From the sequence record MK685668: a DNA stretch of 40,058 nt. One strand, 5' to 3'. A model generated the notes under the pieces. It was not told the origin of the DNA. It worked only from the letters and a program-made list of their open reading frames with translations, and did no database searches. Positions 738 to 30,148 of this stretch are shown piece after piece. The stretch comes from Shigella phage VB_Ship_A7. The translations under genes were made by a program, and so were the position numbers. Numbering within the stretch: the stretch's first letter is position 1; each line of letters opens with the position of its first letter.

Positions 738-760
738 CTTCCCAATAGTGAGTCGTATTA
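738..760 (-). promoter_or_regulatory. T7-type phage RNAP promoter (phiOR position, downstream of terminase gene)
   Basis: Minus strand reads TAATACGACTCACTATTGGGAAG, a near-perfect match to the T7 promoter TAATACGACTCACTATAGGGAGA. Confidence 0.8.
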
Positions 761-3674: not shown

Positions 3675-5540
3675 TTACTCCTTGTCTTTCTCCAACTCCT
3701 GAATGCGTGCATCTAGGTTCTTCACAAGCAGCATCAATCCACCGATAATCTGGTTAGGGTCTGGAGACTGCATCCCATCGCTCATAACGTCAACCGCTTC
3801 CGGCCACAGGCGGATTAAGTCCTGTGTGATGAATCCTGCACGAGAACGCTTACCGACTGTCTTAACGGAGCGCCCATGGTTATCAGTCCAAGTTTTGTCC
3901 TTGTACTTATAGGATACCGGAATGTAGGACCGGATGATGTTGAGCATATCGTCTGCATCGCGAACAACCTTGAGGTCCTCTTTCAGACGCCTATCAGACG
4001 AAAACCAGCGGAATCCTACTGCCGAACCATCAACGGTCCCTTCTATGTAGTCCCCACCACGGCCTGTGTAGAGTTGGACCCCTCCAGGCGGCTTGGCGAA
4101 CTGGTACTTATTGTGTAGGAAGTTATACAGGTCCCCACCATAATTGTCCCACAGTCCTCCACGTAAGTTCCCTTCATAGTTAAAATGACACCTACCCATT
4201 CCTGAATAAATGATCTGACCGATTATGTTGTTTCCGGCCTCAATCCTCGCACCATTTTCACCTTGGAAGTGTCTGGCATGGACCTCACCGTTACCAGTGA
4301 ACGTAACGCGTCCTAGCTCGGCAGTGTTCCCAGAGTTTACAGTACGAAAAACAAAACCACCGTCACCTAAACCCTTGTTGCATATGAAGTTCGCTTCGCC
4401 ACTGGATTGCTCGTTCCAAGCAAAATGTAAACCTTGTAGTCCGATGTGCATTGGGCTGTTCTTAATATGAAGTCGCCACATTGAGTTATAAGCATTCCCA
4501 TTAGACTGTTGCCGTAAGCCTCCATTGGCTACCACGATTCCATCGACCAAAATATCCTTCTGTGCCTGTATGTCTCCACCAACAACCAACAAATCACCGA
4601 TGCTCACCCCTTTATCAAATTGACCAGCACCAGTGGAGGTTATGCCACCTCCTACGATGTTTCCGGGCGTTGCAATATTACCTTTAAATGCTACGTGATT
4701 CCCATCAACCGAATCTAAGGCACCAGCAAAGTCATTCATGCTTTCTAACTTGTCAGCCTCTACAATTGCACGGTCGCGTGCCTCTTCTGCCTTGATTCGT
4801 GACTGACGAGCAGCCTCATTATGTGCAGCCGCCTGTCCCTCGGAGGTTAGTGCATCACTAGCAGAGGACGCAGCGTTACTCTCAGCGCTAATAGCACGGT
4901 CGCGTGCAGCCTCAGAACTGACAGCAGCACTTTCAGAGCGGATACCATATTGCTCAGAATGAACTGCGAAATTGTTAGCTTTAGTTGCTTCCTGTTGAGC
5001 ACGGTCAGCTTCACTCTTGGCACGGTCAGCTTCTGTACGTGCCTTAACGTAGGACTGATATGCCCCATCGTTCCACTGCTTGACTGTGCGCAAGTTTAGA
5101 GCATCATACTCACCAACCGGGTCAGCCACGTTAACAATACGGCGACCACGAGCATCTAAGTGCCCATCATTATTGACACCAATAGTATCAGCAGTAAGGT
5201 CGCGTGCTTCCTCGGCAACGTGAAGCGTTTGAATCTGTGAAATGTTCAGGTCATATGCGCGAAGGATTGAGCCATCAGCAAAGTCAACCAGACGGTCACT
5301 CGCAGAGGTAAAGCGGCGAATCTCAATCATCTGGTAACCATCAGCATCGGTCCACGCACGGGACGTTGTAATTTGAGTCTTAGTGGTAAAGCGATAGTCC
5401 TGATTAAGAACAAGTTCCTTACGGTCTTTACCAATTAGTGTTACTTTTACGAACTTACGTGCCAGATACTCAAAGGTAATTGTGAAGTCCACGGCACCAT
5501 TAAGTGGGTAAGTACGCACAGTGGAAATTTTGTTAGCCAT
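3675..5540 (-). CDS. 17: Tail fibre protein: conserved N-terminal tail-attachment domain, divergent distal region, C-terminal intramolecular-chaperone-like domain
   Basis: 621 aa; the first ~150 aa (MANKISTVRTYPLNG...GVNNDGHLDARGRRIVN) match the T7 gp17 N-terminus; the C-terminal ~107 aa begin SSDRRLKEDL, the signature of self-cleaving chaperone (peptidase S74-like) domains. Confidence 0.9.
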   Translation of the reverse strand: MANKISTVRTYPLNGAVDFTITFEYLARKFVKVTLIGKDRKELVLNQDYRFTTKTQITTSRAWTDADGYQMIEIRRFTSASDRLVDFADGSILRAYDLNISQIQTLHVAEEARDLTADTIGVNNDGHLDARGRRIVNVADPVGEYDALNLRTVKQWNDGAYQSYVKARTEADRAKSEADRAQQEATKANNFAVHSEQYGIRSESAAVSSEAARDRAISAESNAASSASDALTSEGQAAAHNEAARQSRIKAEEARDRAIVEADKLESMNDFAGALDSVDGNHVAFKGNIATPGNIVGGGITSTGAGQFDKGVSIGDLLVVGGDIQAQKDILVDGIVVANGGLRQQSNGNAYNSMWRLHIKNSPMHIGLQGLHFAWNEQSSGEANFICNKGLGDGGFVFRTVNSGNTAELGRVTFTGNGEVHARHFQGENGARIEAGNNIIGQIIYSGMGRCHFNYEGNLRGGLWDNYGGDLYNFLHNKYQFAKPPGGVQLYTGRGGDYIEGTVDGSAVGFRWFSSDRRLKEDLKVVRDADDMLNIIRSYIPVSYKYKDKTWTDNHGRSVKTVGKRSRAGFITQDLIRLWPEAVDVMSDGMQSPDPNQIIGGLMLLVKNLDARIQELEKDKE

Positions 5541-5587
5541 CTGTAGCCTCCTTTAGATTAGGTATAATAAAGGGAAGCTGTGAGAGC

Positions 5588-5610
5588 CTTCCCAATAGTG
5601 AGTCGTATTG
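5588..5610 (-). promoter_or_regulatory. T7-type phage promoter (phi17 position)
   Basis: Minus strand reads CAATACGACTCACTATTGGGAAG, immediately upstream of the tail fibre gene. Confidence 0.8.
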
Positions 5611-5611
5611 A

Positions 5612-8600
5612 TTACTTCTTGTCAGACTTGAGGTGAACACCATTGGCCTCATAGAACTTGATGAGCATCTGTTGGGAGATTGGGTCGTTAGGAATCATCT
5701 CTCGGTGGGCGTTCATTAAGCCAGTCATCATCTCACGCTCGGTCACTTTGTTTGGAGCCGTAAGGACACCATAAGCATTTCGACCAGCAGCAAGGGTAGC
5801 ACCAGCGAACCCAAGAGCAGGAACCTGTTCACCAATAGCGCCCATAATGGAATCACCCATGTCACGAGAAGTTACCGCCTTGTTCCGTTCTTTCTTATCC
5901 TCTCCTTTAGGGAGAATCGTAGAGCGGACCATGAGACCTTGGTCGTAACCAGCAGCACCCATAGCGAAGTTTGCGATACTCAGAGGCGACCCAAGGTGTG
6001 AACTTCGGGAAGCCGCAGCGTAGGCAATCATCTTAGGGTCCAGAGCTTTCTTCAGGTAGTCCTTCTGTTGCTCTTTAGGAAGACCAGCAGCCTTCAAGTG
6101 GGCCTGTGCCACATAGTAGGAGCCAGCGATACCACCAGAGATTGCATAGGTCAGCGCCATATCCATAGCACGATGGTTCTTAAAGGCTTCGTGACCGGAG
6201 CGGATAAACTTAGAGTTCATCGACTTGATTACGAAAGACTTGAACTGAAGGACCAACTTAGCGGCAGCACCAAACGCATGGGAATCCTGAAGTGAAACCT
6301 TGTTAGGTCTCAGCATTGTCTCATCAGCAACCTTATCAGCCAGTCGCCACAGGTCCATAGCTCGCGGGTCATTAGCCAGCTTACGCTTGTCCTTGAAGGT
6401 GTACTTGCCGTCAGCACCTTGAGTGACGTTCTCACGGATGAGGTTCTGAATGCCTTCCCACTGTTCCTTTGAGATACTCGCAGATTTCAGCATGTCGCCT
6501 TTAATCCACTTGTTGGCACCCTTACCAGTAATGGCATGAGTTACCACATCTCCCATGACACCCTGACGGGCCATATCCAGAATGTAGTTGGAAGTACCGT
6601 TGAGGAACTTAGTGAACGGAGAGCGAGCAGCCAACTCTTGAGTGGTGTGCTTAACCGTACCAACAACCTTAGCGACAGCATCAGGTGTATCAGTAGACTC
6701 ACGGAGTCGCTGAATGATGTCTTGACGAGTCGGTCGGATTAACTGGTCGAACTCTTTACCAAACACCATAGAGTGGAGTTCTTTGAGTTCACTACCAGAG
6801 ACTGGCTTGTTACGGAACGCTAGGTCACGCAGAGCGGGAATGCCATGCAGCATCGCACGGGTGTTACCCTTCGACAATAGACCAGCGATTTCAGTTAGGT
6901 TCTGCAAGCCCATATATGCGTTCTTCGTAAAGAAGGACATATCGGATAGAGAGCGAACCATAGTGTCACCTACGGTATCCTGATTGCGTCGAGCACGACC
7001 AGTGACAATCTTAACGAAATCCTTAAGTGCTTCCACTTCACCTTTCATTGTGCCTTTACCTTCAGACTTCTTATCAAGAGCCATAATAGCGTCCTTGAGT
7101 TCAGCAGTAGTCTTGCCTGTGCCTCCCATGATAGCAATATCACCATCAACACGGCGGTCATATGCTGGCATCACATGCTTCATATCGAAGTCACGAAGGT
7201 CATTCACAGAGAACTGTTGACCATTCGGTAGAGTGATTGGCACGTCAGAATCAAACAGGTTACGGGCTTCAAGGAATGAGTTGTTCTCAATCCCAACGAG
7301 ACCCTCAATGTTATCGTCAATGACACTTGAAGAGTTGAACTCATCGGTCTTCGCAATACCATAAGCCTTGTCCATAGCGTACTTCTCAGCCATCTGACTA
7401 AGCATAGCCTCTTCGTCTACCTTTGGTTCCACCTTCTCGTCTGTGCCAAACTTCTGGCGCTCTGAAGGTTTAGCCGGGGTGGAGTCGTAGGCTTTACGGA
7501 ATGCTTGACCATCGGGGGTACGCACGCCACCAACTGATTCGTCTGTTCCACGGTACACGTAGTCAGGACTCTCAGTCTCAGCGATTCGGTACATCTCGGT
7601 AGCGATGCCTTTGCGGCGGTACTTCTCGGACACCTCAAGACTTGGATTATGCCACACGTCTCCCTCACGTTTAGCGAACTCTACGCTGCCAATGTGGTCT
7701 CCCTTTTTGGTGAACACATCCACCGCGAACTCAGCACCATCAGTTGTCTTAGCTGTGTAGTAGACAAAATCACCATCCACCTTGTAAGGAGTCTCACCAG
7801 AGTAGTCTCGCTTACCAGCGAAGTAATCACCTTGGAGTTCGCCATTAGAGACCTTAGTGATGCTAGTTGAGTTACCACCAGTCACCAGTGAGTCAGGCAT
7901 TACCGGAGCAGCCTCAGCACCTCTCAGGAAGTTCTCAGCTTCAGCTTGTGCACCTTTGGCAGTAGAGGCGGCTTCTTCAGCTTCGGCGGTGGCTTTGGTG
8001 ATTCTATCTTGGACCTTAGCAGCCTGTCCTTTCATGTGGTCGAGACGCTCTGTGTTAATACGGACGTGAGACTTCTGGGTCTCAATCATCTTCTTCCGGC
8101 TCTCAATCTTAACAGGAATGGTTTTGCTATTAGGTTTAGCAGCTAGTTTTTCTTCCAACTCCTTCAACTTAGCCTCATGCGAAGCCAGTCTGTCCTTGGA
8201 GTTCTGGAGTTTCCTTTCACGGTCCGCAACTCGCTTCTCAGCGTTGGTCAGAACGTCTTTTAGTTCCGCTACCTTATCACTTGCCCGTGTAGCTGCATCG
8301 TCCAGTTTCATCCGGTAACTGGCTGTGTCTACAGACTCTTGGCTTCTGAGGAAGTTCTCAGTGTCAGCCGCAAGTTTGGCATCAGCTTCAGCTTTGGAGA
8401 AAACGTCACTGTTAACCTGTTTAAGGTATTCATCAATACGGGCCTTGACTTCAGGACGCGCATGATATGATGCCATCAGGCTTGCAGCAACTGCTTCCTG
8501 TAAACCATCAGTGCCCCCAAGAGCCTGTGAGTACACCTGCTTGGCTTCCCGCGAGTACACATGAGGAACGTAAGTCCCTTTGTGACGACTGTTAGGGAAG

Positions 8601-10546
8601 ATAGAGGTTGCCTTGTTACCGAACATCGACGGGTTCTCCATCATCTCACGCTTGAGGTCATAATGTTCCTTCACGATGTCCATAACCTTACGCTCTTCCT
8701 TGGTCAAGTTAGCTTGAAGTTCAGGTCTCTCGATAGCCTCACTGATACGACGATAGATTGTTTGACGGGCACCTTGAGCACCACTCTTGAACATACCCAC
8801 AGACCACTCAGGGTCAGCCATTGCTTCCTTCATTGCACTATAGAGGTTATTGTAGGTTCGATGGTTGAGACTACGCAGTCGCTCTATGATGTCCGATGTA
8901 GTAGAACCAAACTTACCATGTGAGCCTGACTCCATACCTGTAGGTGAGCGCACTAAGTCCTTTGCGAGACCACGGATTTCAGAGTGTTCTGAACGTAGGG
9001 TTTTCAAGCCGATTTCACTTAGTCCACGCATAGGCAATCCCCAAGCAGCACGTTCAGGGTCCACTTCAGCGAACTCTCTGGCAGTCATTGGGTTAGCCAA
9101 GTTGGTATCACTAATAATGGAACCATCACGCAGCACTACCGCACCCGGTTCAGTTTCGAGAGGTGCATACTCAACGCCGTTGTGCTGTGAGAACACTCGG
9201 TCTTCACTAGGAGGCATACGACTTGCATCATATCCACCAGTGTTACGGGCAGTCTCACGAGCCTCGAAGCGCATCTGTGTAGCAGAAAACGGGTTCTCAA
9301 TCTGTTCAGTACCAGACTTACGGAGACCTGCAGCAACACCATCAGCAACCGCAGTGAGTCCACCAGCAAGCAGCATACCAGCAAGAGCAGCTTCCGCATA
9401 GTGAGCATCGCCACCAGCAACGGATGTACGCAGACCCTCAGAGGCAACGTTAAGTGCACCAGCTTGAGCACCCACCATCAACGCCTTGTTCACCAGCTTG
9501 AATCCCTTGGCTGTAGTCCCTGCGAGTGGGATGTAGGTCAACGGGTCCACACCAGCACCAATCAGGCCAGCAGACAGCTTGGCACCAAGTCCAGCTTCAG
9601 CAGCCTTAGCGTCAGCCTCGTAGTTCTCGTTAGCCAGCTTGATTAGCTCATCAAGGTTCTCAGCGGAACCACCAAGCACAACGTTAATGTACGCAGGGTT
9701 TTTCACTTCTTTGCGAATCTTGTCGAGTTCTTCAGGCGACCAAATGTGGCTATTAAACCGTGTCGGTTGAAGTACATCAGTGAGCACATCAAAACCATTG
9801 TCACGCTTACTAGCACGGAAGGCAACACCCAAGGTTGAGTTGGAGAGTTCTGCTTCAGCAGCACTACCGAATCCGAAGAAGGTTGAACGCTCATTGGCTT
9901 CGTCAAGAGTTGTTCCTTTTGCTTCCCAATAGTCTTTACCGAATGGCTGATTGGGAGCGGTCTGTTCTTTACCTTGAAAGGACATTGAGTGAGACTCAGG
10001 GAGTTCTGTAGTTACCTTTCCTTTCTCCCCGATACCACTCATAGCAGCGTCGAACGAAATCCCTTTACCCTTTGGGGTGATACCACCGAAGGACTCAATG
10101 TCGCCACTCTTCGGAGACTTAGCGACATCCAGAAGTGAGCGCAAATAGTTACGCCCTTCGTCACCAATACCAGCAAAGTTACCGGAGTCGTAGGCTTCCA
10201 ATTGAGGCTTACCGTTTCGGCCTTCGCCTTGGTTGTACGCAAGGGCAGCTTTCAGTTCATCCCCATTGTACTTCTTAACGAGGTCTGCAAGGTAACGAGC
10301 ACCAGCATCGATAGACTTAGCCGGGTCGTTGAAGTCCTCATCAGACTGTAGGCCGTAAGCCTGACCAGTTGCCTTAGTGAACTGCATGACACCCCGTGGC
10401 CCTGTTGGTGATTGGGCCGTAGGTTTGAATCGGGACTCTACCCAACCGACCTTCCGAAGAAGGCCGTAGGAGACTCCATGTGTGTCAGCAGCTTGTTGAA
10501 ATAACGCATCATATTCATGCGGTTCGTTCGGGTTATACTTATCCAC
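5612..10546 (-). CDS. 16: Internal virion (core) protein D with N-terminal lytic transglycosylase domain; enlarged (1644 aa)
   Basis: GTG start at 10546 with AGGAGG 6 nt upstream; N-terminus MDKYNPNEPHEYDALFQQAADTHGVSYGLLRKVGWVESRF...GVMQFTKATG is the T7 gp16 SLT-type region; about 326 aa longer than T7 gp16 (1318 aa). Confidence 0.95.
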   Translation of the reverse strand: MDKYNPNEPHEYDALFQQAADTHGVSYGLLRKVGWVESRFKPTAQSPTGPRGVMQFTKATGQAYGLQSDEDFNDPAKSIDAGARYLADLVKKYNGDELKAALAYNQGEGRNGKPQLEAYDSGNFAGIGDEGRNYLRSLLDVAKSPKSGDIESFGGITPKGKGISFDAAMSGIGEKGKVTTELPESHSMSFQGKEQTAPNQPFGKDYWEAKGTTLDEANERSTFFGFGSAAEAELSNSTLGVAFRASKRDNGFDVLTDVLQPTRFNSHIWSPEELDKIRKEVKNPAYINVVLGGSAENLDELIKLANENYEADAKAAEAGLGAKLSAGLIGAGVDPLTYIPLAGTTAKGFKLVNKALMVGAQAGALNVASEGLRTSVAGGDAHYAEAALAGMLLAGGLTAVADGVAAGLRKSGTEQIENPFSATQMRFEARETARNTGGYDASRMPPSEDRVFSQHNGVEYAPLETEPGAVVLRDGSIISDTNLANPMTAREFAEVDPERAAWGLPMRGLSEIGLKTLRSEHSEIRGLAKDLVRSPTGMESGSHGKFGSTTSDIIERLRSLNHRTYNNLYSAMKEAMADPEWSVGMFKSGAQGARQTIYRRISEAIERPELQANLTKEERKVMDIVKEHYDLKREMMENPSMFGNKATSIFPNSRHKGTYVPHVYSREAKQVYSQALGGTDGLQEAVAASLMASYHARPEVKARIDEYLKQVNSDVFSKAEADAKLAADTENFLRSQESVDTASYRMKLDDAATRASDKVAELKDVLTNAEKRVADRERKLQNSKDRLASHEAKLKELEEKLAAKPNSKTIPVKIESRKKMIETQKSHVRINTERLDHMKGQAAKVQDRITKATAEAEEAASTAKGAQAEAENFLRGAEAAPVMPDSLVTGGNSTSITKVSNGELQGDYFAGKRDYSGETPYKVDGDFVYYTAKTTDGAEFAVDVFTKKGDHIGSVEFAKREGDVWHNPSLEVSEKYRRKGIATEMYRIAETESPDYVYRGTDESVGGVRTPDGQAFRKAYDSTPAKPSERQKFGTDEKVEPKVDEEAMLSQMAEKYAMDKAYGIAKTDEFNSSSVIDDNIEGLVGIENNSFLEARNLFDSDVPITLPNGQQFSVNDLRDFDMKHVMPAYDRRVDGDIAIMGGTGKTTAELKDAIMALDKKSEGKGTMKGEVEALKDFVKIVTGRARRNQDTVGDTMVRSLSDMSFFTKNAYMGLQNLTEIAGLLSKGNTRAMLHGIPALRDLAFRNKPVSGSELKELHSMVFGKEFDQLIRPTRQDIIQRLRESTDTPDAVAKVVGTVKHTTQELAARSPFTKFLNGTSNYILDMARQGVMGDVVTHAITGKGANKWIKGDMLKSASISKEQWEGIQNLIRENVTQGADGKYTFKDKRKLANDPRAMDLWRLADKVADETMLRPNKVSLQDSHAFGAAAKLVLQFKSFVIKSMNSKFIRSGHEAFKNHRAMDMALTYAISGGIAGSYYVAQAHLKAAGLPKEQQKDYLKKALDPKMIAYAAASRSSHLGSPLSIANFAMGAAGYDQGLMVRSTILPKGEDKKERNKAVTSRDMGDSIMGAIGEQVPALGFAGATLAAGRNAYGVLTAPNKVTEREMMTGLMNAHREMIPNDPISQQMLIKFYEANGVHLKSDKK

Positions 10547-10569: not shown

Positions 10570-12849
10570 TTAGTCTTTACCAGTCAGCGTATCCAGAATA
10601 CCCTTGCCACTCACGCTATCGTACATGCTGCCAGAGCGTTTAGGCTTCTTAGCTTCACGTTCACGCTTGCGGTTCATAGCTCGTGTATGTAGGGTTCGCT
10701 TGTTGGCATCTTTGAGTGCCTTGTTACGGGCTTCCTCGTCCAGCTTCGCTTGGTTCTCTTGGTACATCTTCGAGAGCAACTGCTTGTCGTACCGAATGTT
10801 AATCTGTCCGGTTGTATCCATCAGGTAGATAGAGCCACCACGCTCGAACACAGTGAGTTGCTTGTTGGTAACCCAAGGGTTTGTCTCAGCTATTTTCTTA
10901 GCGGCTGCATCGATAATGTCCTTACCTTGTTTCCAAGAGTCCGGGTCATCAGTCACACGCAAAGAGTTTCTCGTCAAGACACCGATGGTATCACCATCAA
11001 CACCATCAGCAGTGAGAGTCGTTGTGTTCTCTTTGAGAAACTTATCGACCTGTTGCACTGCCATGTCTGGGTTACCTGTACGGTACTTAACGGAGTCGTA
11101 AATCTTACGAGCACCATTCTGGAGAGTTGACGGCATATACTTAATCTCAGGAGACAGTGAGTTGTTCATGAGGGAGGCCCATGCCTTGTCATCCTCGTAT
11201 CGCATCTCTTTGGTAAGAGACTTTTGAGCCTTGTCAGCATCTAAGAGAAACTGAGGGTCAATCCCTAGGTTGTCCATCATGTCCATAGTGAGGAACATCT
11301 CAGCCTTATCAGGATATAACGCAGCGAATAACTCAGGGTCAGCATTACGAACGCGACGTAGGGCATTGAGAGCCACACCGCCACCTTCTGGCATCTTCCC
11401 GTTAATCACAGCGGACGTCCATTCCTTCTCAGCGTCACCAATCAGTTCACCAACCGCAGTACGGAAAGCGCCCTTCTCGGAGTCAGCCTTGAGGTAGTCC
11501 AGCTTCATTCGGTCCTTCTGTTCATTAGGGATGTTCATAGCATCAATGTCAGCCAGCTTCTTGTTAGCGTAGTTAACCATATCACTATGAGTGAACTCAC
11601 CAGTGTTCTCGTTGGTTGGCATATCGCCATACGCAGTAGACACATATTGACCATTGAGTCGCTTCTGGAACTGTGCGTCGATGACGTTCATCTTGTTCAT
11701 GGACTTCTGTTGCTTATCCATTTCCTTGGCTAACTCAGCGGTCTCTCGCTTCATGCGGTCCTGCATCTGCGTCTGTGCGCTGATTAGAGCCTGACGTTCA
11801 GGTGTCATCTCTTCACCCGGTTGCAGTTTATCCAGTTCTGCCTTGATGGACTGTAGTTGTTCCCAGCCAGTGTTCACGTTCTCTTGGTTCAACGCAGAGT
11901 TCACATTGAGTTGGAACGCTTCGGTCTTCTTGGCATTCAATTGGAACTCATTATGCTGAGCCTTGACCATCAAGTTATTCCACTGTTCGGCACCCATCAG
12001 TTCCTTGAAGGTAGTCTCCTTGCCATGCAGTTTTACCTTACGGTTCTCAATCTGTTGGAGGAACTGCCCACCACCCTCACGGTTAACCACGTCAGAGAGA
12101 CCTTGGCTAATCATGGTGAACGCTTGGTCATCACTAGGGATACTTCCGGTCGTCAATCCAGCGGTGAAGTAGTTCTCAAAGAACTCACCAGCATACGGAG
12201 AACGTAGGGTTTCCGGGTCGTTCAACACAGAGTTTAACTCTACGCGACTGTTGATGACAGCACCCTTCTTAGCTTGGTCACTCAGGAAGTTATCGTGAGC
12301 ACCATAGAGGGCGATGTTACGTTCAGTGATGTCAGAGTTGAATCCCTTCTGATAGAACTCATCAGTCTCGTCAATACCGAACTGTTCCGCATAGTTCTTA
12401 GCGGCTTCTTGTAGTCGGCTATGACGGAACTCTTCCAACTCCTGACGAGTACGGAACTCACCGTTCTTAACCTTCTGTGCCACTTCGTCATCTACGAGGT
12501 ATGCAGCGTTACGACCAGTCTTAATCTTAAGTGCTTCCATCGCGTATGGGTCATCCTGATATAACAGGGTTCCGTTCTTAATGGCCTCACGGCGCTGTTC
12601 TGGAGTCAGCTTACGAATAATCTCGTTAGAGCGCTCGTCTGCTTTGTCCTTCTGGCGCTGGTCATACTTCATGTAGGCATCCGCACCCATCTCAGCAAGT
12701 TTACCTACAGTGCCAATCAGCTTAGACTTCTCGGCATACTTAGGGTCTTCATAGACGGTTGCAGCCTTCACTTCCACACGACCAGTGCCACGCAGACGAC
12801 TAGTAGACGGAGCGTTCATGCCACCCAATGCTTGTGCTAACTTACTCAT
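10570..12849 (-). CDS. 15: Internal virion (core) protein C
   Basis: 759 aa (T7 gp15 is 747 aa); conserved stretch ERSNEIIRKLTPEQRREAIKNGTLLYQDDPYAMEAL; synteny between gp14 and gp16. Confidence 0.93.
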   Translation of the reverse strand: MSKLAQALGGMNAPSTSRLRGTGRVEVKAATVYEDPKYAEKSKLIGTVGKLAEMGADAYMKYDQRQKDKADERSNEIIRKLTPEQRREAIKNGTLLYQDDPYAMEALKIKTGRNAAYLVDDEVAQKVKNGEFRTRQELEEFRHSRLQEAAKNYAEQFGIDETDEFYQKGFNSDITERNIALYGAHDNFLSDQAKKGAVINSRVELNSVLNDPETLRSPYAGEFFENYFTAGLTTGSIPSDDQAFTMISQGLSDVVNREGGGQFLQQIENRKVKLHGKETTFKELMGAEQWNNLMVKAQHNEFQLNAKKTEAFQLNVNSALNQENVNTGWEQLQSIKAELDKLQPGEEMTPERQALISAQTQMQDRMKRETAELAKEMDKQQKSMNKMNVIDAQFQKRLNGQYVSTAYGDMPTNENTGEFTHSDMVNYANKKLADIDAMNIPNEQKDRMKLDYLKADSEKGAFRTAVGELIGDAEKEWTSAVINGKMPEGGGVALNALRRVRNADPELFAALYPDKAEMFLTMDMMDNLGIDPQFLLDADKAQKSLTKEMRYEDDKAWASLMNNSLSPEIKYMPSTLQNGARKIYDSVKYRTGNPDMAVQQVDKFLKENTTTLTADGVDGDTIGVLTRNSLRVTDDPDSWKQGKDIIDAAAKKIAETNPWVTNKQLTVFERGGSIYLMDTTGQINIRYDKQLLSKMYQENQAKLDEEARNKALKDANKRTLHTRAMNRKREREAKKPKRSGSMYDSVSGKGILDTLTGKD

Positions 12850-13894: not shown

Positions 13895-13917
13895 CTTCCC
13901 AATAGTGAGTCGTATTG
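13895..13917 (-). promoter_or_regulatory. T7-type phage promoter (phi13 position)
   Basis: Minus strand reads CAATACGACTCACTATTGGGAAG. Confidence 0.8.
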
Positions 13918-16364: not shown

Positions 16365-16955
16365 TTAACGAGACAGCAGACCACCAGTGAAGGCATCGCC
16401 ATCAAGCATGTTGAAGCCACCAAAGTCCAGTTCATACTCGTGACATTGCATCTTCGCTTCCTGTTCTTCTTCAGCTAACACCGCGTCAATCTCAGGCGCA
16501 CCAAAGAATCGGTTGTTGAACTGACGAGCGGCCTTAGTGACAATCCAATGGCGAAAGCATTCAGGCATCTCATAGAACTCTCTCAGTTTGATAATGGTCA
16601 CTGTGATAGGGTTCTGAAATACATCAGTACCAGTGGTCCGGTCAAAGACGTATCCACCACGGTTCACATAGGCAGTCGCTCCACCTTCAGAGAGTACAGA
16701 CAGGTAGTCGGACATGTACGGAATCAATCCATTAAACACATCAGGGAGCAACTGTTGGCCTTCCTCAATGTTGAACGTCCATCCCTTTGACTGAATCTGA
16801 CGGTTAATCTTATTAAGCACTCGACGCGCGTTAGCAACATCAGCGTTAGCATCACCCTCCAAAGTGGAGACAGGCGATTCACCGATAGATGCCAAGATGT
16901 CATTTATAGCAGACAACTCTTCTCCCGTCTCTAGGGTAGTTTCATAGGAACGCAT
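16365..16955 (-). CDS. 11: Tail tubular protein A
   Basis: 196 aa, same as T7 gp11; starts [39 protein letters not shown]. Confidence 0.95.
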
Positions 16956-18294: not shown

Positions 18295-18317
18295 TCTCCC
18301 AATAGTGAGTCGTATTA
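18295..18317 (-). promoter_or_regulatory. T7-type phage promoter (phi10 position)
   Basis: Minus strand reads TAATACGACTCACTATTGGGAGA, followed by a leader with AAGGAG SD before the capsid ATG. Confidence 0.85.
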
Positions 18318-19294: not shown

Positions 19295-20902
19295 TTAATT
19301 TGGAACCATACCTGCCTGTTCAGCAGCAGCTTGCATGTTCTCAGGACTTGCTGTAGCGAGAGAACCAGCACCAGCACCAGCAGACGCAGCAGCGTTCTCC
19401 ATAGCCGTGCTTTGTGCAGCCTCAGCCATCTCCTGTTGTTTCTCTTCAGGTGTCTTAAGGATGCCAGAAGTGTCAATGCCGATAGCGTTCGCAATGCGCA
19501 ACTTAATGGTCGCAATGTTGATGTCCGGGTCTTGCTGCATAGGAGCCAGAGCGGACCATGCGGCGATACAACGTTCCAGCTTATCAAGGTCTTGACCGCG
19601 ACCCAATGCTTCCATCCCGGTACTGATAGTTGGCTCAACGGCCTCTTTCGGTAACTCAGGAATCTGCTCGGTTGCTTGAAGTTGTTTCAGCAGGACACGG
19701 ACCATAGGCAACTGAAGTTCCTGTGAGAGAATCGAATAGACACCACCAAGGGTATCTTCGAGTTCAGATGCAACATAACGAATCTCTTCGGCAGTCACAC
19801 GCTCACCAGTACGCTGTACCGCAGAGTTCAACATAAAGGCATAGGAAAGTCGACCTTCAATCTGTTCACTCACAGCTTTCGCTACAGAGAAGTCAGCAGC
19901 CTTTTCCAACTGAAGGAACGAGATGTCTTCTGGACGACCAGACACGAAGTCACCAGTCTGTGCTTTGGTCAAACGACGAACCTGTGTGATACCAGCCGGG
20001 TTAACCAAGCCGATAACCTTTGCACTAATCATTGACATCTTAACGATAGCTTCTTGGAGGTTCTCAAGGGACCGTAAGTCACCTAAGTATTCCTCACAGT
20101 AAGAACGACCATATGACTCTCCGTCAATACGCACCATGCGAACCGGGATATACGGACAAGCGTCCACCGGATAAGAAGCATCTGTGCCATCAACTTCAAC
20201 GCCATCAATCTCTTCGTACTTGAGGTACTCACCAGATTCTTCGTCAAGATAAATGTGTGTGTACACATCAATCATTTCGTCGCCTTTATGTTCCTGACCG
20301 GAGTCCATAGAGTTTCTTACGTCTTCGGGTAGTGCTGCATAAGCAGTCTTATCCAAAGTCACAATCTGTAGTACCGTGCCGAATGCGTCTCGTTGGACAA
20401 CATAAGAAGACAGGCGGTATAACTTCATGGGATTGTAAGCACCTTCAGGCTCAGGAATGTAGAGTAGAGCGTTACCTGCAACGACTAACTGCTTGAGGGT
20501 CTCAAAGAGTGTCACACGGTACGAGTTGGACTCGATGTAGTTCATCAAGATTCGCTCGACCATTGAGAGTCCTTCTTCGACCTTCGCTAGTTCGGCTGGT
20601 TGTTTAACCAATTGTTTCGCTTCGAACTCAGAGATGGTTAGCTTCATCCACGTCTGCATAGGGAACAGAGCGAGCATGAGCTTAGAGGCCAAGTTGTTCA
20701 AGCCACGAGCACCAACTGCTTGCCACGGAGTGGTATAGTCAGTAGAGGCGTTGTCGGAGTCTTTAGGGAACAACGAAGGGATGGTGTACTTCGCACAGTT
20801 TTCCGCACGGGTCTCATAGGAGTTCCGGTCGTTCTTCAATGAGTCATACACCGCCTTGGCACCATTCTCCGCGAAGCCTTCACGTTTCTGTGAGCTTGCC
20901 AT
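19295..20902 (-). CDS. 8: Head-to-tail connector (portal) protein
   Basis: 535 aa (T7 gp8 is 536 aa); ATG at 20902 with GGAGG SD; synteny. Confidence 0.95.
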   Translation of the reverse strand: MASSQKREGFAENGAKAVYDSLKNDRNSYETRAENCAKYTIPSLFPKDSDNASTDYTTPWQAVGARGLNNLASKLMLALFPMQTWMKLTISEFEAKQLVKQPAELAKVEEGLSMVERILMNYIESNSYRVTLFETLKQLVVAGNALLYIPEPEGAYNPMKLYRLSSYVVQRDAFGTVLQIVTLDKTAYAALPEDVRNSMDSGQEHKGDEMIDVYTHIYLDEESGEYLKYEEIDGVEVDGTDASYPVDACPYIPVRMVRIDGESYGRSYCEEYLGDLRSLENLQEAIVKMSMISAKVIGLVNPAGITQVRRLTKAQTGDFVSGRPEDISFLQLEKAADFSVAKAVSEQIEGRLSYAFMLNSAVQRTGERVTAEEIRYVASELEDTLGGVYSILSQELQLPMVRVLLKQLQATEQIPELPKEAVEPTISTGMEALGRGQDLDKLERCIAAWSALAPMQQDPDINIATIKLRIANAIGIDTSGILKTPEEKQQEMAEAAQSTAMENAAASAGAGAGSLATASPENMQAAAEQAGMVPN

Positions 20903-29705: not shown

Positions 29706-30148
29706 TTCTTCTTTACCTCTTTAAATTTATCGAATGGAACATCCTTAGAAGGCTCTTTCAGCCAATCAACTGGAATTAACTTGTCAGCAAACAGAATGCC
29801 ATGCTTCTCGCACCACTCGCCGTAACTGGTCGGAGACCCTTTGTACAGCTTGGAGCGGCTTGAAGAGAACACGATACGAACATCAAGTTCAGGGTACTGT
29901 TCACGAATCAGCAAGTGTTTCTTGCGGTCCTCACTGTCCCACAGACCTTTGGTTTCCACAAAGATGCCATTAGGTAACAGGAAGTCAGGGCAATAGGTAT
30001 GGTTGCTTGCAGGAATAACATAGGGTACTCGCCAACGCTCATAGTCGAACTTAATGTTCTTCCCTTCGAGTTGCTTGCTTACCTTATCCTCCAAGCCAGA
30101 GCGAAAGGCACCCACACGAGTGCCTCGACCTGCATAACCCTTAGACAT
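29702..30148 (-). CDS. 3: Endonuclease I (Holliday junction resolvase)
   Basis: 148 aa; VGAFRSGLEDKVSKQLE...YVIPASNHTYCPDFLLPNGIFVETKG matches recalled T7 gp3. Confidence 0.95.
   Translation of the reverse strand: MSKGYAGRGTRVGAFRSGLEDKVSKQLEGKNIKFDYERWRVPYVIPASNHTYCPDFLLPNGIFVETKGLWDSEDRKKHLLIREQYPELDVRIVFSSSRSKLYKGSPTSYGEWCEKHGILFADKLIPVDWLKEPSKDVPFDKFKEVKKK

What the first reader, a model, noticed from the sequence alone, without database searches (positions are those of the whole stretch)
3675..5540. Tail fibre with T7-like N-terminus, divergent receptor-binding region and a C-terminal self-cleaving-chaperone-like domain
Only the first 150 aa or so of the 621-aa gp17 resemble the T7 gp17 tail-attachment domain. 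The remainder is unrelated to the T7 fibre tip as far as I can judge. The last 107 aa or so (nt 3678-3998) begin at SSDRRLKEDL, the hallmark of the intramolecular chaperone (peptidase S74-type) domains that are auto-cleaved after trimer folding in K1F endosialidase and the T5 L-shaped fibre. This implies a different receptor and host range from T7 and a proteolytically matured fibre.
Basis: partly seen in the sequence, partly recalled or inferred. Interest (0 to 1): 0.6.

Follow-up and report, generated by a model that had tools for sequence, protein, structure and literature searches.

The report
Self-cleaving chaperone on a T7-like tail fibre
This is the tail-fibre gene of the published Shigella phage vB_ShiP-A7; it carries a C-terminal self-cleaving folding domain, an arrangement already shown by experiment in the close relative phiYeO3-12, so the finding is correct but ordinary.

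Summary
ORF 3675-5540 (minus strand, 621 aa) is gene 17 of a T7-like phage. The protein is 100% identical to the tail fibre of Shigella phage vB_ShiP-A7, whose genome has the same length as the window (40,058 bp).

Pfam finds the T7 tail-attachment domain (residues 1-154, E 2e-49) and Peptidase_S74, "chaperone of endosialidase" (residues 515-583, E 1e-10, above the curated cut-off).

- **Catalytic motif:** S515-D-R-R-L-K520 is invariant in 94 family members.
- **Selection:** the domain is under strong purifying selection (dN/dS 0.04-0.08).
- **Relatives:** the fibre belongs to the phiYeO3-12 gp17 family (PHROG 9502). The chaperone domain is 89% identical to that of phiYeO3-12, for which self-cleavage into 57.4 + 12.2 kDa pieces was shown by SDS-PAGE and mass spectrometry.
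- **Prediction here:** a mature fibre of 55.75 kDa (1-514) plus a released fragment of 12.35 kDa (515-621).

One correction: similarity to T7 gp17 runs through the coiled-coil shaft to about residue 295 (38% identity, E 4e-15), not only 150 aa. Only residues 297-514 are unrelated to the T7 tip.

The receptor is probably an O-antigen. This is inferred from relatives and from the published host range.

Verdict: a new member of a known kind, of low interest.

The parts
5590..5609 (-). Phage RNA-polymerase promoter (phi17 equivalent) just upstream of gene 17
   Evidence: AATACGACTCACTATTGGGA is an exact match to the genome's own promoter consensus. There are 11 such sites, all on the minus strand, against 0 expected by chance. 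The position matches the annotated phi17 promoter of phiYeO3-12.
5547..5553 (-). Ribosome-binding site AAGGAGG, 6 nt upstream of the ATG
   Evidence: Read directly from the sequence.
3675..5540 (-). Gene 17, tail fibre protein, 621 aa (68.07 kDa precursor); the stop codon is 3675-3677
   Evidence: ORF list. PHROG 9502 'tail fiber protein' matches full length, E 3e-273. [quoted passage not shown]
5079..5540 (-). Residues 1-154: T7-type N-terminal domain that attaches the fibre to the tail
   Evidence: Pfam PF03906, E 2.3e-49. Aligns with the T7 gp17 N-terminus in PDB 7boz, 8e4g and 8dsp. 99% identical to WW1 and 74-82% to the other relatives.
4653..5078 (-). Residues 155-296: Ala/Glu/Ser-rich alpha-helical coiled-coil shaft ending in the conserved EADKLxxxNxFAGAxDSVDGNxVxFKGNI junction
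   Evidence: 38% identity to T7 gp17 159-296, E 4e-15; the phmmer alignment to 7boz runs over residues 1-296. Only 29-40% identical to the phiYeO3-12-type relatives, but 91% to WW1.
3999..4652 (-). Residues 297-514: distal beta-rich region and tip, the presumed receptor-binding part. It is the most variable part of the distal region (297-621) within the family.
   Evidence: No Pfam family and no significant similarity to T7 gp17. 53-75% identical to family members. Highest column entropy at residues 307-366, 417-426 and 447-456. The core, about residues 356-441, recurs in other phage tail fibres, usually with a C-terminal S74 domain. AF2 monomer pLDDT is 70-91 here, but no fold match was found.
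3678..3998 (-). Residues 515-621: C-terminal intramolecular chaperone / self-cleaving domain (Peptidase_S74); predicted released fragment of 12.35 kDa
   Evidence: Pfam PF13884, E 1e-10 to 9e-12, above the gathering score. 79-89% identical to the phiYeO3-12-type fibres. dN/dS 0.04-0.08. The profile hits other S74 chaperones: the 8jov fibre, the MYRF ICA domain 7dc3 and GA-1 3gud.
3981..3998 (-). Catalytic motif S515-D-R-R-L-K520 (Ser codon 3996-3998, Lys codon 3981-3983); the predicted scissile bond is Ser514|Ser515
   Evidence: The translation reads SSDRRLK. S515, D516, R518 and K520 are invariant in 8 phage fibres. S515, D516, R517, R518 and K520 are invariant in 94 family members. The Ser(i)/Lys(i+5) spacing is the same as Ser1264/Lys1269 of T5 pb1 (PMC4690869).

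Best explanation
Gene 17 encodes the single tail fibre of a T7-like podophage (Shigella phage vB_ShiP-A7). It is built from four modules. (i) Residues 1-154 are a T7-type N-terminal domain that docks the trimer onto the tail. (ii) Residues 155-296 are a T7-like coiled-coil shaft. (iii) Residues 297-514 are a phiYeO3-12-type distal region and tip that binds the host receptor, most likely a specific O-antigen. (iv) Residues 515-621 are an S74-type intramolecular chaperone. By analogy with K1F endosialidase and T5 pb1, the three chaperone domains nucleate trimerisation and folding of the intertwined distal part. Once the trimer is correctly folded, Ser515, activated by Lys520, cuts the Ser514-Ser515 bond in each chain. 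This releases a 12.35-kDa fragment and leaves a 55.75-kDa mature fibre (residues 1-514) on the virion. Shown here: the domain architecture, the intact and invariant catalytic motif, purifying selection on the domain, and membership of the phiYeO3-12 gp17 family. Shown by others for the homologue: self-cleavage. Inferred: cleavage in this protein, the exact scissile bond, and the O-antigen receptor.
For: Pfam finds PF03906 and PF13884, both above their curated cut-offs. PHROG 9502 matches end to end. The Ser/Lys motif is invariant in 8 and in 94 relatives. The chaperone domain is 89% identical to that of phiYeO3-12 gp17. Recombinant phiYeO3-12 gp17 splits into about 58 + 11 kDa on SDS-PAGE and into 57.423 + 12.242 kDa by MS (PMC7582827, PMC8739404). 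The calculated mass of phiYeO3-12 residues 539-645, starting at the equivalent Ser, is 12,258.8 Da. That is the closest of all neighbouring cut sites to the measured 12,242 Da. The crystallised GA-1 chaperone chain 3gud starts at the aligned SDERHK. dN/dS of the domain is 0.04-0.08, against 0.16-0.26 for the tip. No separate fibre-chaperone gene follows: the holin gene starts 56 nt downstream. For the receptor: phiYeO3-12 uses the O:3 O-antigen (PMC8739404); Bas102, which has the same fibre type with an IMC, depends on O16 O-antigen (PMC11990801); and vB_ShiP-A7 lyses S. flexneri 1a but not the rough K-12 strain MG1655 or S. sonnei (PMC8427288).
Against: Cleavage has not been observed for this protein. 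Virion MS in PMC8427288 detected ORF5 with only 2 peptides (4.7% coverage) and gave no positions. The SDS-PAGE band was assigned by size estimate only. The AF2 monomer model of the chaperone domain is low-confidence (pLDDT below 50), and fold searches returned nothing significant, so the fold was not confirmed structurally. In T5 and K1F a folding-sensor Arg sits 14 residues before the Ser; no Arg sits there in this protein. The invariant R511 and the near-invariant R494 are candidates only. The measured phiYeO3-12 fragment is 17 Da lighter than calculated. The O-antigen receptor is inferred only; the tip is just 56-67% identical to fibres with known receptors.
Confidence: 0.88

Rival explanations
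1. The S74-like domain is present but is no longer cleaved. It stays on the virion as a structural C-terminal knob, or even forms part of the receptor-binding tip.
For: No direct cleavage data exist for this protein. The domain is the best-conserved part of the distal region, which would also fit a structural role. The usual sensor Arg at position -14 is not present.
Against: The Ser515/Lys520 dyad and the flanking D516, R517 and R518 are invariant in 94 relatives. The 89%-identical domain of phiYeO3-12 does cleave itself. In the T5 structure the chaperone covers the tip, so keeping it would block receptor access (PMC4690869).
Confidence: 0.05
2. The distal region 297-514 recognises something other than O-antigen, for example the LPS core (as for T7) or an outer-membrane protein.
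For: The receptor was never tested for this phage. The tip is only 56-67% identical to fibres with known receptors. The variable segments 307-366, 417-426 and 447-456 could have re-targeted it.
Against: Both family members with known receptors use O-antigens. The host range is serotype-restricted and excludes the rough K-12 strain, which exposes its LPS core and common porins.
Confidence: 0.25
3. The fibre is an enzymatic tailspike (O-antigen depolymerase or deacetylase) rather than a simple binding fibre, as with K1F endosialidase, which carries the same kind of chaperone.
For: S74 chaperones were first described on endosialidases and other depolymerases (PMC4690869).
Against: No enzymatic Pfam domain is found in residues 151-500. 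The distal part is only about 218 aa, too short for a typical beta-helix depolymerase. [quoted passage not shown] No fold match to any glycosidase was found, though the model is weak.
Confidence: 0.04

Closest known systems
Yersinia phage phiYeO3-12 Gp17 tail fibre (645 aa; S74 domain 539-645)
   Same: The four-module architecture is the same and both belong to PHROG 9502. The N-terminus is 82% identical, the tip 56% and the chaperone domain 89%. Both have the SDRRLKE motif. Self-cleavage into 57.4 + 12.2 kDa was shown experimentally for phiYeO3-12. Both are the single fibre of a T7-like phage and are followed directly by the holin gene.
   Different: The shaft is only 40% identical and is 24 aa longer in phiYeO3-12. 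The tip has diverged (56%). The host differs: Y. enterocolitica O:3 versus S. flexneri 1a and some E. coli. The genome backbone differs: Teetrevirus versus Berlinvirus-like.
Yersinia phage vB_YenP_WW1 tail fibre (closest sequence in the phage collection)
   Same: Colinear over the full length, 86.5% nt and 86% aa identity. The flanking genome is 93-99% identical.
   Different: Identity falls from 98.5% nt at the N-terminus to 80% in the tip and 77% in the chaperone domain. Synonymous divergence rises from 0.05 to 1.62. The 3' half of the gene therefore has a different recombination history. WW1 is reported on Y. enterocolitica.
Escherichia phage MeretOppenheim (Bas102) tail fibre
   Same: The distal region and chaperone are of the same type: tip 62% identical, IMC 79%. 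Its authors explicitly note the C-terminal IMC domain, and the phage is O16 O-antigen dependent.
   Different: Its N-terminus and shaft are of the T7 (Teseptimavirus) type (74% and 34% identity).
T7 gp17
   Same: The N-terminal domain and coiled-coil shaft are homologous up to residue 296. It has the same position in the genome and the same promoter arrangement.
K1F endosialidase and T5 L-shaped fibre pb1 intramolecular chaperones (PDB 3GW6, 4UW8), MEROPS/Pfam S74
   Same: The Pfam family is the same, as is the Ser(i)/Lys(i+5) dyad at the start of the domain. The predicted order of secondary-structure elements also agrees, ending in a long C-terminal helix (residues 595-620) like the coiled-coil helix of T5 pb1.
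   Different: Sequence similarity is too low for direct detection by phmmer against the PDB. The preceding domains are unrelated. The sensor Arg is not at the same offset.

Membership tests
Peptidase S74 / C-terminal intramolecular chaperone domain (Pfam PF13884) | Profile match above the curated gathering score | tested here: met
   41.9 bits on the full protein and 45.5 bits on the C-terminus alone, against a cut-off of 22; E 1.2e-10 and 9.2e-12.
Peptidase S74 / C-terminal intramolecular chaperone domain (Pfam PF13884) | Catalytic Ser at the first residue of the domain, with Lys five residues downstream (Ser911/Lys916 in K1F from memory; Ser1264/Lys1269 in T5 pb1) | tested here: met
   S515 and K520 lie in SDRRLK. 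Both are invariant in 8 and in 94 relatives. The T5 residue numbering is from PMC4690869.
Peptidase S74 / C-terminal intramolecular chaperone domain (Pfam PF13884) | Located at the extreme C-terminus of a trimeric phage fibre or spike, about 100-150 aa long | tested here: met
   Residues 515-621 (107 aa) are the last residues of the tail fibre.
Peptidase S74 / C-terminal intramolecular chaperone domain (Pfam PF13884) | Fold: mixed alpha/beta domain with a beta-hairpin 'tentacle' and a C-terminal helix forming a trimeric coiled coil | tested here: inconclusive
Peptidase S74 / C-terminal intramolecular chaperone domain (Pfam PF13884) | Folding-sensor Arg (from a neighbouring chain) and Asp upstream of the scissile bond | tested here: inconclusive
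   Invariant R511 and D504 and near-invariant R494 and D497 lie upstream. None sits at the -14 offset seen in T5. Assigning them needs a trimer structure.
Peptidase S74 / C-terminal intramolecular chaperone domain (Pfam PF13884) | Autoproteolytic release of the domain after trimer folding | not testable with these tools
   Shown for the 89%-identical domain of phiYeO3-12 gp17. Published virion MS for this phage is uninformative.
phiYeO3-12-type gp17 tail fibres (PHROG 9502) | End-to-end profile match and a colinear domain order | tested here: met
   phrog_9502 E 3.1e-273, protein residues 1-620 against profile positions 1-645 of 647. Colinear alignment with 7 phage fibres and with 93 database relatives at 54-79% identity over the distal part.
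T7 gp17 N-terminal tail-attachment domain (Pfam PF03906) | Profile match above the gathering score; gene located between gp16 and the holin gene | tested here: met
   167.5 bits against a cut-off of 25.2. The gene order gp16 - gp17 - holin - small terminase matches T7, phiYeO3-12 and WW1.
T7 gp17 distal pyramid and tip domains (PDB 4A0T) | Sequence or fold similarity to T7 gp17 residues 371-553 | tested here: not met

The most novel reading that the evidence does not exclude
The chaperone module is far more conserved than its job would seem to need. It is 80-89% identical at the protein level across phages whose tips are only 53-75% identical, has dN/dS of 0.04-0.08, and yet its synonymous sites are saturated. 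The most novel reading not excluded is that the released 12-kDa fragment has a second function after cleavage in the infected cell. A related possibility is that the constant module acts as a selected 3' anchor, letting receptor-binding tips be swapped between T7-like phages of different genera.
Probability: 0.06. Interest if true: 0.5.

Novelty: new member of a known kind. Interest (0 to 1): 0.12.

Why it matters
The value is practical rather than conceptual. It corrects the expected size of the virion fibre (55.75 kDa, not the 68 kDa assumed in the phage's own paper). It tells anyone who expresses or engineers this receptor-binding protein to keep residues 515-621 in the construct for folding, and to expect them to fall off afterwards. 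It also points to an O-antigen receptor for a phage proposed for therapy against S. flexneri 1a. The gradient of synonymous divergence along the gene is a clean example of tail-fibre mosaicism in T7-like phages.

Tried and rejected
- **PDB by sequence:** a single-sequence phmmer search with the C-terminus gave only marginal hits (6f45 E 0.043, 8jov E 0.045). A 10-sequence profile improved this only modestly (8jov 1.4e-3, MYRF 0.01, GA-1 0.35).
- **First homologue search:** it returned just 4 clusters, so I repeated it with a profile and got 94.
- **Published virion data:** I looked for evidence of processing in the vB_ShiP-A7 proteomics. There are only 2 peptides for ORF5, no positions, and the supplement holds no peptide list.
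- **WW1 literature:** a search for vB_YenP_WW1 found no paper.
- **T7 tip motif:** a possible remote link between the tip and T7 through the GNLxGGLW / GNIQGTKW motif scores E 0.18 and was dropped as not significant.
- **Depolymerase reading:** considered and rejected, because there is no enzymatic domain and the distal region is short.
- **Frame errors:** two calls (67, 68) failed because the coordinates were out of frame; I repeated them correctly (69, 70).

Full report
**What is there.** The window carries an ORF at exactly 3675-5540 on the minus strand, encoding 621 aa. An AAGGAGG ribosome-binding site lies at 5547-5553. An exact copy of the genome's own phage-RNA-polymerase promoter consensus lies at 5590-5609. 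There are 11 such sites, all on the minus strand, against none expected by chance. The neighbours are those of T7 gene 17. Upstream is the internal virion protein gp16 (5612-10546). Downstream, after 56 nt, come the holin, the small terminase subunit, Rz and the large terminase subunit. No separate fibre-assembly gene is present.

**Identity of the window.** A profile search returned a protein 100% identical over 621 aa, named "tail fiber protein [Shigella phage VB_Ship_A7]", on a contig of 40,058 bp, the length of the window. The paper on that phage (PMC8427288) lists ORF5 at 3675-5540, 621 aa, "tail fiber protein". It notes that only the N-terminus resembles related phages and places the protein nearest to the fibres of phages AP5 and 2050H2. 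It never mentions S74 or a chaperone: both terms occur zero times. The rest of the genome is Berlinvirus-like, about 90-93% identical to P483, pO103, PYPS50, BA14 and 285P.

**Checking the observation.**
- Pfam finds Phage_T7_tail at residues 1-154 (E 2.3e-49).
- Pfam finds Peptidase_S74, "chaperone of endosialidase", at residues 515-583. It scores 41.9 bits against a curated cut-off of 22 (E 1.2e-10), and 45.5 bits when the C-terminus is scored alone.
- The motif SSDRRLK is encoded at 3981-4001.
- A 10-sequence profile of the distal part also picks up other S74-type chaperones in the PDB: a podophage fibre (8jov, E 1.4e-3), the auto-processing domain of human MYRF (7dc3, E 0.01) and the GA-1 neck appendage chaperone (3gud, E 0.35). 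The crystallised 3gud chain begins exactly at the aligned SDERHK.

One point needs correcting. Similarity to T7 gp17 does not end at about 150 aa. The shaft (residues 151-300) aligns colinearly with T7 gp17 159-296 at 38% identity, E 4e-15, including the junction motif EADKLE..N..AGA.D.VDG..V..KGNI. Only residues 297-621 lack any significant match to T7 gp17 (best E 0.18).

**Family.** The whole protein matches PHROG 9502 end to end (E 3e-273). tblastn and alignment show this is the phiYeO3-12 gp17 type of fibre. It occurs in T7-like phages of Yersinia, Escherichia, Shigella, Enterobacter, Serratia, Citrobacter and Klebsiella.

Identity of each segment to three relatives:

| Segment (residues) | WW1 | phiYeO3-12 | Bas102 |
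|---|---|---|---|
| N-terminus (1-137) | 99% | 82% | 74% |
| Shaft (138-296) | 91% | 40% | 34% |
| Distal region and tip (297-514) | 75% | 56% | 62% |
| Chaperone domain (515-621) | 86% | 89% | 79% |

S515, D516, R518 and K520 are invariant in the eight phage fibres. S515, D516, R517, R518 and K520 are invariant in 94 database relatives. Column entropy is lowest in the chaperone domain. It is highest at residues 307-366, 417-426 and 447-456, which are candidate receptor-contact segments.

**Is the chaperone domain functional?** In all four comparisons its dN/dS is 0.04-0.08, against 0.16-0.26 for the tip, while its synonymous sites are near saturation (dS 1.6-4.0). That is strong purifying selection, not decay.

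The 89%-identical domain of phiYeO3-12 gp17 (residues 539-645) has been shown to cleave itself. The recombinant protein runs at about 58 kDa with an extra fragment of about 11 kDa (PMC7582827). Mass spectrometry gives 57.423 and 12.242 kDa (PMC8739404). I calculated 12,258.8 Da for phiYeO3-12 residues 539-645. The neighbouring cut sites give 12,387.0 and 12,171.8 Da, so the cut immediately before the conserved Ser fits best, with an unexplained 17-Da deficit.

The T5 pb1 structure paper describes the same chemistry: cleavage of the Thr1263-Ser1264 bond, Ser1264 activated by Lys1269, and an Arg from a neighbouring chain that makes cleavage depend on correct trimer folding (PMC4690869). Transposed here, the Ser514-Ser515 bond is cut. 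The products are a 55.75-kDa mature fibre and a 12.35-kDa fragment, from a 68.07-kDa precursor.

This step is inferred for vB_ShiP-A7. The published virion proteomics found ORF5 with only two peptides (4.7% coverage). The gel band was assigned by estimated size, so processing was neither shown nor excluded.

**Receptor.** phiYeO3-12 uses the O:3 O-antigen (PMC8739404). The BASEL phage MeretOppenheim (Bas102) has a fibre of the same type, and its authors note the C-terminal IMC domain; it depends on O16 O-antigen (PMC11990801). vB_ShiP-A7 lyses S. flexneri serotype 1a strains and a few clinical E. coli strains. It does not lyse S. sonnei or the rough K-12 strain MG1655, which is a T7 host. An O-antigen receptor is therefore the most likely reading, but it is an inference.

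**Mosaicism.** Against its nearest relative WW1, the flanking genome is 93-99% identical. Identity drops to 67-82% only across 3750-4500, which covers the tip and the first part of the chaperone domain. Synonymous divergence rises along the gene: 0.05 at the N-terminus, 0.28 in the shaft, 0.59 in the tip and 1.62 in the chaperone domain. The 3' part of gene 17 therefore has a different ancestry from the rest. This is the usual exchange of receptor-binding modules between T7-like phages.

A search of 1.84 billion representative proteins with the tip alone found only 98 relatives. The shared core is about residues 356-441. It recurs in other phage tail fibres, and most of those I checked also end in an S74 domain. 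The chaperone subtype itself is 80-89% conserved in 36 phage records, all of the phiYeO3-12 fibre type among those listed. The next tier, at about 30% identity, lies mostly in tail fibres of large (about 110-240 kb) phages, mainly T4-like distal long and short fibres.

**Verdict.** The architecture and its self-cleavage are already published for phiYeO3-12 Gp17 and noted for Bas102. The precomputed domain annotation of this very protein already lists PF13884. It is a new, not individually described member of a known kind, of practical but little conceptual interest.

Noticed in passing
window 5612-10546 (-), especially 7373-8429: gp16 (internal virion protein D) is 1644 aa, against about 1315-1320 aa in T7 and WW1. 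An extra stretch of about 1.06 kb is absent from WW1 and consists of two modules that occur separately in other T7-like phages. The second module contains a GNAT-like acetyltransferase segment (gp16 residues about 939-992). It scores 19.6 bits on the whole protein (below the cut-off of 20.7) but 22.1-25.1 bits when scored alone. The long protein is packaged: 111 peptides, 72.9% coverage (PMC8427288). An acetyltransferase-like domain in an ejected protein could be an injected effector.
   Followed up: partly
window 740-759, 5590-5609, 13897-13916, 18297-18316 and 7 further sites, all on the minus strand: There are eleven copies of a T7-like promoter, AATACGACTCACTATTGGGA (four exact), against 0 expected by chance. 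The whole window is a T7-like genome in reverse-complement orientation. The paper reports 177-bp terminal repeats.
   Followed up: partly
window 3750-3899 (gp17 residues about 547-597): This is the lowest nucleotide identity to WW1 anywhere in the 7-kb comparison (67%), although the protein is largely conserved there. Synonymous sites are saturated inside an otherwise 93-99% identical genome region, which marks a recombination patch inside the chaperone domain.
   Followed up: yes
phiYeO3-12 gp17 (L002:342-2276), published MS data: The released C-terminal fragment measured by MS (12,242 Da) is 17 Da lighter than the calculated mass of residues 539-645 (12,258.8 Da). This could be loss of NH3 or H2O, or calibration error; it is unexplained.
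   Followed up: no
PMC8427288 Table 3; window 9639-9767, 11963-12169, 16521-16787, 19923-20099, 29770-29970 (+ strand): The phage's own paper reports virion peptides assigned to short ORFs antisense to late structural genes, each with 2-3 peptides. These look like weak identifications and were not examined here.
   Followed up: no
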